Of a DNA stretch of 64,000 nt, positions 20,257 to 23,063 are shown piece by piece. This DNA is from Bythopirellula sp. (lineage in GTDB: Bacteria; Planctomycetota; Planctomycetia; Pirellulales; Lacipirellulaceae): the NCBI GenBank assembly GCA_965216565.1, contig OZ244170.1:5120001-5184000 (forward strand). Reading direction: 5' to 3'. Made by a program: the position numbers and the translations under genes. A model generated the notes under the pieces. It was not told the DNA's origin, did not search any database, and saw only the letters and a program-made list of their open reading frames with translations. Numbering within the stretch: the first letter of the stretch is position 1; every line of letters starts with the position of its first letter.

Positions 20257-20931
20257 CTAGTCGGTTTGATCCTTCGCACGATTGGCTACCTCAAAGGTGA
20301 CCTGCTCCAGCTCACGTGCCAAATCGACTCCCACCTTGCTGACACCGGCCGGCACCGTAAGGGTCACAGGGGCGAAATTCAAGATACCGCTGACGCCTGC
20401 AGCCACAAGCTTATCAGCGACAACCTGGGCGTGTGGGGCAGGGACTGCCACGAGACCCAACTCAATTTTCTCCTGCGATACCAGTTCGGCTAACCGGTCT
20501 AAATGATGGACATTCACACCATCGATTGAATTTCCCACTTCGCCAGGGTCTACGTCAAACGCTGCGATGATGCGGAAGCCTTGTTTTTCGAATCCTCGAT
20601 AGCCTAGCAAGGCTCGTCCCAGGTTACCGACACCAACGAGCGCGACCCTCCATTGGCGGTCGGTCCCCAGAATCCGCCGGATTTCCTGCACTAATTCCTG
20701 ACACCGATAGCCAATTCCGGGGTGACCGAAATGGCCGAAATGGGCCAAATCCTTCCGAACTTGGGCATCGGTAAAGCCCAGCAGTTTGCCCAGTTGGCTG
20801 CTGCTGATGGTTTCGTTGCCGTCGCCCAGCAAGTGCTGCAACTCCCTCAAATACAGACTCAACCGGTTCACCACCGCATTGGGGATGGAATCGGGGTCGG
20901 GTCGATCTGGGTTGGGCTTAGGGGAAGTCAT
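20257..20931 (-). CDS. rex: Redox-sensing transcriptional repressor Rex
   Basis: IPNAVVNRLSLYLREL, ISSSQLG, QVRKDLAHFGHFGHPGIGY, VGVGNLGRAL, GILNFAP. Confidence 0.97.
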   Translation of the reverse strand: MTSPKPNPDRPDPDSIPNAVVNRLSLYLRELQHLLGDGNETISSSQLGKLLGFTDAQVRKDLAHFGHFGHPGIGYRCQELVQEIRRILGTDRQWRVALVGVGNLGRALLGYRGFEKQGFRIIAAFDVDPGEVGNSIDGVNVHHLDRLAELVSQEKIELGLVAVPAPHAQVVADKLVAAGVSGILNFAPVTLTVPAGVSKVGVDLARELEQVTFEVANRAKDQTD

Positions 20932-21364
20932 TCGAGTGGGATCAGGGGAGACACGGAGAGTCATTTCACCCGCGAAAAACCCCAGCAACATTCAGTTCCT
21001 GGGGTGGCTGCCACTGTAAAGCAATGAGATTTAGCCAGCAACCCAAAGCTCATAAGTGCCAATGCCTCGCATAACGACCAAATCGCATTCTGCCATGCGT
21101 TTCGCGGCACGGGCGTAACCCCACTAATCCTTACCTTCGTCAGTTCAGCTATGGACCCAACCGAGGCTGAGGGTCCGGCAAAACGCAACGTTTGGATCGT
21201 AGCGATTGAGAATAGCAGAGAATCAAGCTGGACTCTTATTTTTAGGAGTTCTAGCTAAGGGAGGGAGTTTAGTTAGGCCGAAAAACTGAGTGGATGGACA
21301 TTTTCCCATCTTGACCAAGTTGTGTATTCCCCCACCCAGAAGTGTTACGAAGGAGATCCTCACC

Positions 21365-22882
21365 ATGAGAACCAAGTCTTGTGTGTTGGCTCTGGCTGTC
21401 GTAGCCGTCGCGTTGCTGCAATCCTCAGCATCGGCCGGCTACTGCGGAGCTGCACGCTACAACGGATGTTGTCAGCCAAAGTGCTGCCACGTTGTAATGA
21501 AAACCAAACGTTGTGTGACTTACGAGAAGCAGTGCTGCACTCGTTATCGCACAGTTTACGACCGCGTATGTTACGACAAGGTGATCAACTGTACTCGTTA
21601 CGTACCCGAAACCCGCACCAAGCAGGTCTGCTACACCGTTTGCAAGCCAGTTTGGGAAACAAAAACCCGCAACTACACGGTTTGCAAGCCTTGCTGGGAA
21701 ACGAAAACTCGTCAGGTCTGCTATACCGTCTGCAAGCCAGTTTGGGAAACCAAAACCCGCAGCTACACGGTCTGCAAGCCCTGCTGGGAAACCAAGACTC
21801 GCGACGTTTGCTATACGGTTTGCAAGCCAGTTTGGGAAACCAAGACTCGGTGCTACACCGTCTGCAAGCCAGTTTGGGAAACCAAGACCCGTTGCTACAC
21901 CGTGAACAAGCCTGTCTGGGAAACCAAGACCCGCCAAGTTTGCTACACAGTCTGCAAGCCAGTCTGGGAGACTCGTACTCGCAACTACACGGTTTGCAAG
22001 CCAGTTTGGGAAACTAAGTCCCGCACTGAAACGTACTACGTCCGCAAGGCTGTTCCCTACACGAAGACCATCAACATCAACACAGGTCACTGGGAGCGAG
22101 AGAGCTACCAGGTTCCAGGTCGGACTTACACCAAGCGTGTACGTCAGCCCGGTTCGTGGAAGTGGGATGCTTGCCGATGCAAGTGCGTTTACTGCCCAGG
22201 TCCTTGCTGCACGGTGAAGTGCCAAGGTCCTCCGCGAACTTGCTGCAAGCGAGTTTGGGTGCCTGAATGCCGCACTAAGGAAATCTGCTGCTGCAAGTAC
22301 GTGTGCGAGCCACGCACCCGCACCTGCTGCTACAAGGTGTGCCACATGGTTCCTGAAACCAAGACTTGCTGCTACAAGGTTTGCCGCATGGTGCCTGAGC
22401 AGCGAACCAAGACTTGCTGCTACAAGGTGTGCCACATGGTCCCTGAGACCAAGACCTGCTGCTACAAGGTTTGCCGCATGGTACCTGAGACCAAGACCTG
22501 CTGCTACAAGGTTTGCCGCATGGTACCTCAGCAGTGCAAGAAGACCGTTTGCTACAAGGTCTGCCGGATGATTCCGGAAACGAAGACTTGTTGCTACAAG
22601 GTTTGCCGCATGGTGCCTGAGCAGCGAACCAAGACTTGCTGCTACAAGGTCTGCCACATGGTCCCCGAGACCAAGACTTGCTGCTACAAGGTCTGCCGCA
22701 TGGTTCCAGAACAGCGAACGAAGACCGTTTGCTACACCGTGTGCAAGCCAGTATGCGAGCAGCGGACAATCAAGTGTTACAAGTGTGTGCCACGTAAGGT
22801 TCCTTACACCGTCACACGATGCGTACCACGTGTCACTTGCACTAAGGTGCCAGTGTGTGTCTGCTGCCCTTGCTGCAACTAG
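21365..22882 (+). CDS. Secreted Cys-rich YTV-repeat protein (planctomycete envelope family)
   Basis: AAGGAG before ATG 21365; signal peptide ending ASA|; 9 x YTVCKP(V/C)WETKTR and 9 x YKVC(R/H)MVPE repeats; about 80 Cys in 505 aa (hand count). Confidence 0.93.
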   Translation: MRTKSCVLALAVVAVALLQSSASAGYCGAARYNGCCQPKCCHVVMKTKRCVTYEKQCCTRYRTVYDRVCYDKVINCTRYVPETRTKQVCYTVCKPVWETKTRNYTVCKPCWETKTRQVCYTVCKPVWETKTRSYTVCKPCWETKTRDVCYTVCKPVWETKTRCYTVCKPVWETKTRCYTVNKPVWETKTRQVCYTVCKPVWETRTRNYTVCKPVWETKSRTETYYVRKAVPYTKTININTGHWERESYQVPGRTYTKRVRQPGSWKWDACRCKCVYCPGPCCTVKCQGPPRTCCKRVWVPECRTKEICCCKYVCEPRTRTCCYKVCHMVPETKTCCYKVCRMVPEQRTKTCCYKVCHMVPETKTCCYKVCRMVPETKTCCYKVCRMVPQQCKKTVCYKVCRMIPETKTCCYKVCRMVPEQRTKTCCYKVCHMVPETKTCCYKVCRMVPEQRTKTVCYTVCKPVCEQRTIKCYKCVPRKVPYTVTRCVPRVTCTKVPVCVCCPCCN

Positions 22883-22950
22883 TTTGTCGCAAGAGCTGAG
22901 AGAAGTGATGCTTCCTTCATAAGGGGAAGCGAACTTGGTCAGAAAACGAT

Positions 22951-22993
22951 CGGCGGCCCGATTCACTAAGGTGAGTCGGGTCGTCGTTTTTTT
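22951..22993 (+). terminator. Strong intrinsic terminator of the YTV gene
   Basis: CGGCGGCCCGATTCAC-TAAG-GTGAGTCGGGTCGTCG followed by a T run. Confidence 0.88.
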
Positions 22994-23063
22994 ATGCGCT
23001 AATTGTTATGCAGCACACACTCGCGATTCTTATGAGTATCGCGGTTCAGTACAATGACGTCTA

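What the first reader, a model, noticed from the sequence alone, without database searches (positions are those of the whole stretch)
21365..22882. Mirror-symmetric repeat pattern in the YTV protein implies one giant disulfide-stapled beta-hairpin rod
Seen: after the signal peptide, the N-arm (21632-22033) has nine YTVCKP(V/C)WETKTR units and the C-arm (22331-22732) has nine different YKVC(R/H)MVPE..TCC units. Both arms are 134 aa. Tyr-to-Tyr spacings are 14,16,14,16,14,14,16,14 in the N-arm and 14,16,14,14,16,14,16,14 in the C-arm, which is the exact reverse, including the single 14-14 irregularity. The symmetry axis falls near WDACRC (about 22163-22180), flanked by roughly mirrored PG/GP kinks. 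Cys is about 16% by hand count. Known: YTV-motif proteins were described from Rhodopirellula and proposed as envelope components. Inference: two arms of different sequence that keep reversed register must pair antiparallel along their length. This gives a two-stranded ribbon of roughly 70-80 nm (about 230 residues per arm at 0.33 nm), with spare CC pairs available for inter-chain cross-linking. Any repeat gain in one arm would need a matching gain in the other. It could be a molecular ruler or the monomer of a disulfide meshwork or filament. The gene is monocistronic with a good RBS and terminator.
Basis: partly seen in the sequence, partly recalled or inferred. Interest (0 to 1): 0.88.

Follow-up and report, generated by a model that had tools for sequence, protein, structure and literature searches.

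The report
Giant beta-hairpin YTV wall protein
This gene encodes a cysteine-rich YTV cell-wall protein of a planctomycete whose two repeat halves are mirror images in unit length, most likely because the chain folds back on itself into one two-stranded beta-ribbon about 70 nm long.

Summary
The 505-aa secreted protein (Pfam YTV, E 1.6e-86; 15.8% Cys) has nine N-arm and nine C-arm units whose 14/16-residue spacings are exact reverses.

In 30 of 37 well-anchored relatives the two arms differ in length by one constant, over 14 arm-length classes (83-291 aa). All 24 sequences that parse fully into 14/16 units obey the mirror rule. Fifteen of them, in five distinct patterns, are non-palindromic and fail a same-order match. 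A marker unit pair stays at mirrored positions in 6 of 6 sequences across three arm lengths.

AlphaFold2 gives one strand 41-250 and one strand 291-500, with every break mirrored about i+j=541. The short orthologue P0003 gives the same topology at pLDDT 80-91 in caps and centre.

"Disulfide-stapled" is not supported: only 2 of 235 facing pairs are Cys-Cys.

Seven relatives have unequal arms. The gene is an ordinary member of the known YTV wall-protein family. I found no paper describing the hairpin architecture. This scan has noted it before on at least 8 other genomes.

The parts
21351..21355 (+). AGGAG ribosome-binding site, 9 nt before the ATG
   Evidence: Read from the sequence.
21365..22882 (+). 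YTV-family gene, 505 codons plus stop
   Evidence: ORF. Pfam PF07639 E 1.6e-86, 14 stretches. Orthologues start at the equivalent Met.
21365..21436 (+). Sec-type signal peptide, residues 1-24 (MRTKSCVLALAVVAVALLQSSASA)
   Evidence: Basic n-region, hydrophobic core and ASA read from the sequence. AF2 helix 4-17. No signal-peptide predictor was available.
21437..21484 (+). N-terminal Cys-rich tail, residues 25-40 (4 Cys), at the open end of the hairpin
   Evidence: Unstructured and low pLDDT.
21485..21631 (+). N cap, residues 41-89, the start of the long N strand; faces the C cap
   Evidence: AF2 strand starts at 41, pLDDT 64-73. Conserved anchor N2.
21632..22033 (+). N-arm: nine YTVCKP(V/C)WETKTR units, unit lengths 14,16,14,16,14,14,16,14,16
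22034..22330 (+). Conserved centre, residues 224-322. It holds invariant W243 (GHWE) facing W298 (VWVP), mirrored PG/GPP breaks and the tip
   Evidence: AF2 pLDDT 62-83, breaks at 251-253/288-290 and 261-263/278-280. Invariant columns. W243+W298=541.
22169..22180 (+). Hairpin tip, residues 269-272
   Evidence: Gap between strands 264-268 and 273-277.
22331..22732 (+). C-arm: nine YKVC(R/H)MVPE..TCC units, unit lengths 14,16,14,14,16,14,16,14,16
22733..22879 (+). C cap, residues 457-505: a tenth YTV-type unit, CVPRKVPYTVTRCVPR and the CCPCCN end. It faces the N cap
   Evidence: AF2 strand runs to residue 500, pLDDT 53-75. Conserved anchor T2.
22951..22996 (+). Intrinsic-terminator-like hairpin (16 pairs, 10 G-C) followed by a T run

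Best explanation
The gene encodes a secreted, cysteine-rich member of the YTV family. Published work finds this family to be a major constituent of SDS-resistant wall preparations of Planctomycetia.

After signal-peptide removal the chain folds back at a conserved central turn (tip near residues 269-272). The N half (residues 41-250) and the C half (291-500) then run antiparallel and pair residue by residue (i + j = 541) into one two-stranded beta-ribbon. The ribbon is about 210 residues per strand, roughly 70 nm long.

Both unit lengths (14 and 16) are even, so the two faces stay in phase along the whole rod. One face is Val/Lys/Arg/Tyr/Glu. The other is Thr/Cys/Pro/Met/Trp. A Tyr at unit position 0 in one arm faces Lys or Arg at position 10 in the other.

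The 14/16 order of the C-arm must be the reverse of the N-arm to keep every unit in the same register. That is why indels in one arm are matched by mirrored indels in the other.

The cysteines do not face each other across the ribbon. They lie mostly on one face (48 of 65 strand cysteines) and in clusters at the tip and at the open end. The inferred role is to cross-link rods to each other or to other envelope components, giving a disulfide-bonded protein layer.

What is shown: the mirror rule, the arm-length co-variation, the residue co-variation and the predicted topology. What is inferred: that pairing is within one chain, that the ribbon is continuous in vivo, the cross-linking and the envelope location.
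For: 1. Family. PF07639 E 1.6e-86; 298 relatives; 848 cluster representatives at E<=0.001.

2. Arm lengths. Of 59 sequences with three ordered anchors, 37 are well anchored. Thirty of these have C-arm minus N-arm equal to the same constant, over 14 distinct N-arm lengths from 83 to 291 aa; r = 0.90 over all 37.

3. Mirror rule. All 24 of 24 sequences that parse wholly into 14/16 units obey it. Fifteen of them, in five patterns, are non-palindromic and fail the same-order comparison:
- P0003: aaBaB / aBaaB
- L032: aaBaaaBaB / aBaaaBaaB
- the query group: aBaBaaBaB / aBaaBaBaB
- L033 and L021: aBaBaaBaaB / aaBaaBaBaB
- L053 and L048: aBaBaaBaaaaBaB / aBaaaaBaaBaBaB

4. Residue co-variation. Mirrored unit partners carry more mutual information than partners permuted within each protein (z 3.3 and 2.7; 0 of 300 permutations reach the observed value). 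The top couples are N position 10 or 9 with C position 0 or 2 (z 7-9). The odd N unit WENHSKEVC is the mirrored partner of the odd C unit W(K/T)TC in 6 of 6 sequences, whether n = 8, 9 or 10.

5. AF2, window protein. E41-250 and E291-500, with all intervening strand breaks symmetric about 541. pLDDT is 64-83 in the caps and centre.

6. AF2, P0003. Mean pLDDT 69.3, caps 78-87, centre 81-91, all breaks symmetric about 427. In both models the sum equals Y(N)+Y(C)+10, the register given by the co-variation.

7. Structure search. Foldseek finds only proteins with long beta-hairpins, at TM <= 0.13.

8. Literature. Passages read in PMC8567305, PMC5287468, PMC12673574 and PMC10632474 report YTV proteins as major wall-preparation constituents, restricted to Planctomycetia, with one essential in Planctopirus limnophila.
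Against: Seven of 37 well-anchored relatives break the equal-arm rule: P0004 and P0001 +30 aa, L034 +60, L042 -90, P0018 -122, P0017 -16, P0010 +2. I could not tell real alleles from assembly errors.

Twenty-two further sequences were dropped for weak anchors. Four of these also show the constant difference and the rest do not.

pLDDT is below 50 through the middle of both arms, and pTM is 0.20 and 0.26. The tool gives no coordinates or contact map, so N-to-C pairing in the models is read from the mirrored strand boundaries and not from contacts.

AF2's register and my co-variation both draw on the same alignments, so they are not independent.

Many sequences in the query group share their pattern by descent, so they do not count as independent events.

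An isolated two-stranded ribbon of 200 residues per strand has no solved precedent among the structures searched.

Nothing here shows location, oligomeric state or disulfide pattern.
Confidence: 0.72

Rival explanations
1. The N-arm pairs antiparallel with the C-arm of another chain. The result would be a domain-swapped dimer or a head-to-tail polymer, with the conserved centre acting as a hinge instead of a turn. The protein would then be the monomer of a filament or net.
For: The mirror rule, the equal arms and the unit-level co-variation are satisfied equally well by pairing between chains. A net would fit the SDS-resistant wall material described in PMC5287468.
Against: AF2 closes the centre into a tight turn at pLDDT 81-91 in P0003 and pairs the N cap with the C cap of the same chain at 78-87. 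The invariant W243 and W298 face each other across the turn. A monomer prediction cannot model the alternative, so this evidence is weak.
Confidence: 0.15
2. The arms lie side by side antiparallel, unit against unit, but not as one continuous two-stranded ladder. Each 14/16 unit would form a local turn or short hairpin, giving a thicker four-stranded or solenoid-like rod. The uninterrupted strand in the AF2 model would then be an artefact of repeat sequence.
For: pLDDT is 36-47 in the mid-arms. Every unit has a Pro in mid-unit. There is no solved precedent for such a long ribbon.
Against: Both unit lengths are even and the Pro of both arms sits at odd positions, which a continuous ladder predicts. 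The co-varying residue pairs (10 with 0; 12 with 12) are direct cross-strand partners in the continuous register. In P0003 the strands are continuous, at pLDDT above 80, well into the first and last units of each arm.
Confidence: 0.1
3. The mirror pattern is chance or a by-product of how tandem repeats mutate, and has no structural meaning.
For: Within this one protein the pattern is mostly 14/16 alternation with a single extra 14 per arm, so a mirrored position alone would arise by chance about once in several tries.
Against: Five different non-palindromic patterns are all mirrored and none is in the same order. Arm lengths are equal over 14 length classes. The two halves are homologous in the same orientation (47% identity over 171 aa, E 6e-29). 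Duplication would therefore give the same order, and an inverted DNA duplication could not encode them.
Confidence: 0.02

Closest known systems
YTV-domain cysteine-rich cell-wall proteins of Planctomycetia (Pfam PF07639; reported in wall preparations of Rhodopirellula baltica, Gemmata obscuriglobus and Tuwongella immobilis)
   Same: Same family by Pfam. Secreted, about 16% Cys, and found only in planctomycete records among the relatives fetched. The published role is a wall constituent, and a YTV protein is essential in P. limnophila (passages read).
   Different: In the passages I read, the literature describes a motif and a cellular fraction, not an architecture. I found no description of two arms, the mirror rule or a hairpin. 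Hieu et al. 2008 and Mahajan et al. 2020 are cited there, but I could not read them.
Chlamydial cysteine-rich outer-membrane-complex proteins (OmcA/OmcB). The comparison is recalled, not tested.
   Same: A proposed functional analogy: disulfide cross-linked Cys-rich envelope proteins give rigidity in another lineage of the same superphylum.
   Different: There is no sequence relationship. Pfam reports only YTV above threshold. The repeat and hairpin architecture has no counterpart that I know of.
Long beta-hairpins of pore-forming toxin stems and phage tail knobs (lysenin, aerolysin, anthrax protective-antigen pore, phi29 tail knob)
   Same: They are the best Foldseek matches, because each holds an unusually long two-stranded antiparallel hairpin.
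   Different: TM-scores are at most 0.13 and sequence identity is 3-14%. By recall, those hairpins are tens of residues per strand and are part of oligomeric barrels. Here the model is a free ribbon of about 210 residues per strand.
Single-layer beta-sheet rods such as staphylococcal SasG/Aap G5-E repeats and Borrelia OspA (recalled, not tested)
   Same: Elongated, repeat-built beta-structures without a conventional hydrophobic core.
   Different: By recall, those are three-stranded and built from consecutive local domains. Here sequence-distant halves pair, and that pairing is what creates the mirror rule.

Membership tests
YTV family (Pfam PF07639) | Match to the YTV profile above the curated cut-off (21 bits) | tested here: met
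   284.5 bits, E 1.6e-86, 14 stretches.
YTV family (Pfam PF07639) | High cysteine content | tested here: met
   80 of 505 residues, 15.8%.
YTV family (Pfam PF07639) | Restricted to Planctomycetia | tested here: met
   All 47 genome loci carry planctomycete titles (Bythopirellula, Lacipirellulaceae, Pirellulales, Thermoguttaceae). The one exception is a MAG labelled Granulosicoccus, probably mis-binned. The family search rang in 0 of 14 control genomes.
YTV family (Pfam PF07639) | Export signal | tested here: inconclusive
   A Sec-like N-terminus was read from the sequence and is conserved in orthologues. No signal-peptide predictor was available.
YTV family (Pfam PF07639) | Presence in SDS-resistant wall preparations | not testable with these tools
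   Known for other species only.
Two-armed mirror-hairpin architecture (defined in this scan, not in print) | C-arm length minus N-arm length equals the family constant | tested here: met
   153/158 with the anchors and 135/138 with the anchors, the same constant as in 29 other sequences.
Two-armed mirror-hairpin architecture (defined in this scan, not in print) | Reverse of the N unit string equals the C unit string, offset by one unit | tested here: met
   8 of 8 positions mirrored, against 7 of 9 in the same order.
Chlamydial OmcB-type cysteine-rich envelope proteins | Sequence homology | tested here: not met
   No Pfam family other than YTV passes its cut-off. NCBIfam gave none.
Beta-pore-forming toxins | Fold similarity beyond a long hairpin | tested here: not met
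   TM at most 0.13.

The most novel reading that the evidence does not exclude
YTV proteins are free-standing two-stranded beta-ribbon struts, the longest beta-hairpins known. Their length is set by the number of 14/16-residue units, predicted at about 46 to 115 nm across the relatives seen here.

Their two homologous halves have co-evolved through paired, mirrored indels.

The rods are cross-linked into the SDS-resistant protein layer of the planctomycete envelope. The links would run through a Cys-rich face and through Cys clusters at the tip and at the open end. Rod length would then act as a species-specific spacer.
Probability: 0.4. Interest if true: 0.85.

Novelty: new member of a known kind. 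Interest (0 to 1): 0.68.

Why it matters
What the protein-rich planctomycete wall is built from has been asked since the 1980s. YTV proteins are its best-attested protein component, and one is essential in Planctopirus limnophila.

A concrete model now makes that question testable by EM, cross-linking and matched against unmatched unit deletions. The model has three parts:
- a hairpin rod whose length scales with unit number;
- a defined register;
- cysteines that point away from the partner strand.

For structural biology, a ribbon of about 200 residues per strand would be an extreme case. For evolution, it would be a clean example of two distant segments of one gene gaining and losing repeats in a coordinated, mirrored way.

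This particular gene is one ordinary member of the family. Its value is that its non-palindromic 14/16 pattern can tell mirrored pairing from same-order pairing.

Tried and rejected
- **Complex prediction.** Two copies of P0003 (residues 25-392): no verdict, score 0.00. This is neither for nor against self-association.
- **RNA evidence for a monocistronic transcript.** No RNA holder was listed.
- **DNA contigs of four runs (one study).** They are letter-identical to the window. One contig spans 21200-22399 in three runs. The C-arm (22399-22650) is covered only by short pieces, so its unit count is not confirmed by these contigs.
It has no match within 3 mismatches in the 20992-21364 intergenic region.
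- **NCBIfam.** No family.
- **First unit parser.** It over-called Trp at unit position 7 and gave 7-residue spacings. It was replaced.
- **Iterated anchor HMMs.** They became contaminated by repeat units and misplaced the anchors. They were replaced by shorter, non-iterated anchors.
- **Same-order (parallel) pairing.** Rejected on five patterns.
- **Each arm folding on itself.** Rejected because the arms of this protein are not palindromic.
- **Intra-ribbon cysteine ladder.** Rejected for the favoured register. It would need a register of +2 or +6 instead of +10.
- **Foldseek on both models.** No fold relative.
- **Earlier notes near this place in the same genome.** None.

Full report
**What is there.** Window 21365..22882 (+) is an ORF of 505 codons. 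It has a Sec-like N-terminus and 80 Cys (15.8%), and is rich in Thr, Val, Lys, Arg, Tyr and Pro.
- Pfam places it in the YTV family: PF07639, 284.5 bits, E 1.6e-86, 14 stretches. NCBIfam has nothing.
- An AGGAG lies 9 nt before the ATG. A 16-pair hairpin followed by a T run lies at 22951-22986.
- The upstream gene is on the other strand, and the downstream gene (endonuclease V) starts after the terminator. A monocistronic unit is therefore plausible, but no RNA data were available.
- Orthologues begin at the Met equivalent to 21365.

**The observation.**
- N-arm: 14,16,14,16,14,14,16,14.
- C-arm: 14,16,14,14,16,14,16,14.

Each arm is followed by one more 16-residue spacing. Writing a for 14 and B for 16, the strings are N = aBaBaaBaB and C = aBaaBaBaB. 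The exact rule is: reverse(N) without its first element equals C without its last. Within one protein this could be luck, because the pattern is mostly alternation with one extra 14 per arm.

**The orthologue test.** I fetched 47 loci from genome records: Bythopirellula (including the isolate B. polymerisocia Pla144), Lacipirellulaceae and other Pirellulales. I added 241 proteins from two protein searches.

I anchored each sequence with three conserved, non-repeat blocks: the N cap, the centre and the C cap.
- 59 sequences have the three anchors in order, and 37 have good anchor scores.
- In 30 of those 37 the C-arm exceeds the N-arm by the same constant. N-arm lengths take 14 different values from 83 to 291 aa, and r = 0.90 over all 37.
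- An earlier anchor set gave the same result: 17 of 19.
- The seven exceptions are P0004 and P0001 (+30 aa), L034 (+60), L042 (-90), P0018 (-122), P0017 (-16) and P0010 (+2). The larger ones are mostly multiples of the 30-aa a+B double unit. I cannot say whether they are real alleles or assembly errors.
- Of the 22 sequences dropped for weak anchors, four also show the constant difference and the rest do not.

**Mirror against same order.** Of the 30 equal-arm sequences, 24 parse completely into 14/16 units, and all 24 obey the mirror rule.
- Nine are uninformative because their strings are palindromic or uniform: (aB)4 five times, plus L044, L050, L057 and L041.
- Fifteen carry five different non-palindromic patterns: P0003, L032, the nine-member query group, L033 with L021, and L053 with L048. 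In every one the mirrored comparison is perfect and the same-order comparison fails.

The two halves are homologous in the same orientation: 47% identity over 171 aa, E 6e-29, with the two alignment gaps falling where the strings differ. Simple duplication would therefore give the same order. An inverted DNA duplication could not encode these peptides. Selection on structure remains as the explanation.

**Residue level.** I used 19 of the 24 sequences, taking one or two per near-identical group.
- Mirrored unit partners carry more mutual information than partners permuted within each protein: z 3.3 and 2.7, with 0 of 300 permutations reaching the observed value.
- The strongest couples are N-unit positions 10 and 9 with C-unit positions 0 and 2 (z 7-9).
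- They come from a marker pair. The odd N unit ...WENHSKEVC (u4) is the mirrored partner of the odd C unit W(K/T)TC. That C unit is v5 when n=8, v6 when n=9 and v7 when n=10. The relation holds in 6 of 6 sequences.
- This may be one ancestral change, but it has stayed face to face through two rounds of paired unit gain.

**Structure prediction.** For the window protein AF2 used an alignment of 35 sequences. Mean pLDDT is 55.6.
- DSSP gives a helix at 4-17 and one strand at 41-250.
- Short strands follow at 254-260, 264-268, 273-277 and 281-287, and then one strand at 291-500.
- Every boundary is symmetric about i+j=541.
- pLDDT is 64-73 in the N cap, 62-83 in the centre and 53-75 in the C cap. 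It is only 36-47 in the repeat-dense mid-arms.

The short orthologue P0003 has five units per arm. It gives the same topology at mean pLDDT 69.3, with caps at 78-87, the centre at 81-91, and all boundaries symmetric about 427.

In both models the sum equals Y(N)+Y(C)+10, which is the register given by the co-variation. The invariant W243 (GHWE) faces the nearly invariant W298 (VWVP).

The tool gives no coordinates, so pairing is inferred from these symmetric boundaries. Foldseek returns only proteins with very long hairpins, at TM <= 0.13. That fits the geometry but shows no fold relative.

**Consequences of the register.**
- Both unit lengths are even, so side-chain faces stay in phase.
- Within the arms, the even face is V37 K25 R20 Y18 E18 C11. 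The odd face is T45 C31 P18 K10 M9 W9.
- Tyr at position 0 faces Lys or Arg at position 10 in both directions.
- The Pro of both arms sits at odd positions, which I take to be the non-hydrogen-bonded sites of a two-stranded ladder (inference).
- Only 2 of 235 facing pairs are Cys-Cys in this protein, and 0 of 178 in P0003. Registers +2 or +6 would give 16 or 9. The ribbon is therefore not stapled by a cysteine ladder.
- Of 65 strand cysteines, 48 are on the odd face. Seven lie in the turn (251-290), four in residues 25-40 and three in 501-505.
- I infer that they serve links between molecules.

**Family context.** The genome has three YTV genes. The paralogue at 4.31 Mb has the same W-W anchor sum (542). 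Its Gly/Cys clusters at the N end, the tip and the C end face one another, and its arms are about equal.

Published passages describe YTV proteins as follows:
- Cys-rich major constituents of SDS-boiled wall preparations;
- confined to Planctomycetia;
- in one case essential.

Five literature searches found no description of the two-arm mirror or hairpin. Hieu 2008 and Mahajan 2020 were not readable here.

This scan has reached the same reading on at least eight other genomes. I saw those notes only after my own tests, and they are not independent evidence.

**Verdict.**
- The antiparallel N/C pairing is well supported.
- The intramolecular, continuous ribbon is the best reading, at about 0.7.
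- The cysteine staple is not supported.
- The wall role rests on the literature for relatives.
- The gene is an ordinary family member that happens to be an informative one.

Noticed in passing
window 20257-20991 (-), and loci L019-L060 about 0.4-1 kb upstream of the YTV gene: A Rex-like redox-sensing repressor gene (Pfam Put_DNA-bind_N + CoA_binding) is transcribed divergently from the YTV gene. The arrangement is kept in 37 of 47 related loci. An inositol-monophosphatase-family gene lies beyond it in 29 of 47. No Rex-box-like site was found in the shared intergenic region.
   Followed up: partly
own genome G000:C1 about 4314100-4315600 (+) (locus L006): A paralogous 493-aa YTV protein has Gly/Cys-rich clusters at the N end, at the hairpin tip and at the C end. 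These face each other when the chain is folded about its conserved Trp pair (sum 542). Its arms are about equal.
   Followed up: partly
own genome G000:C1 about 3625700-3626600 (-) (locus L005): A third, more divergent YTV paralogue with fewer cysteines in the N-arm. Its centre lacks the GHWE motif and has LTWMPG ... RVWRPN instead.
   Followed up: no
window 21425-22966 (-), 21322-22017 (+), 22275-22769 (-): Long open frames (513, 231 and 164 aa) overlap the YTV gene in other frames. The same alternative-frame peptides (LLHGLQAG..., ATRSASR...) appear inside many metagenomic 'proteins' of the family, which look like frameshifted assemblies. They are most likely by-products of the repeat composition, not genes.
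   Followed up: partly
proteins P0020, P0030, P0032, P0048, P0081, P0112: Some family members carry a C-terminal extension beyond the C cap. In some it has precomputed TPR-type Pfam hits or a source name of 'tetratricopeptide repeat protein'.
   Followed up: no
window 21485-22114 against 22235-22864: The two halves of the protein are homologous in the same orientation, including the pseudo-unit before each arm (RYVPETRTKQVC and KYVCEPRTRTCC) and the unit after it. The hairpin therefore arose from a tandem duplication whose copies pair antiparallel.
   Followed up: yes
locus L019 (record titled Granulosicoccus sp. MAG): The closest orthologue (88% identity) sits in a MAG labelled as a gammaproteobacterium. 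Its neighbours match the planctomycete synteny, so the contig is probably mis-binned.
   Followed up: no
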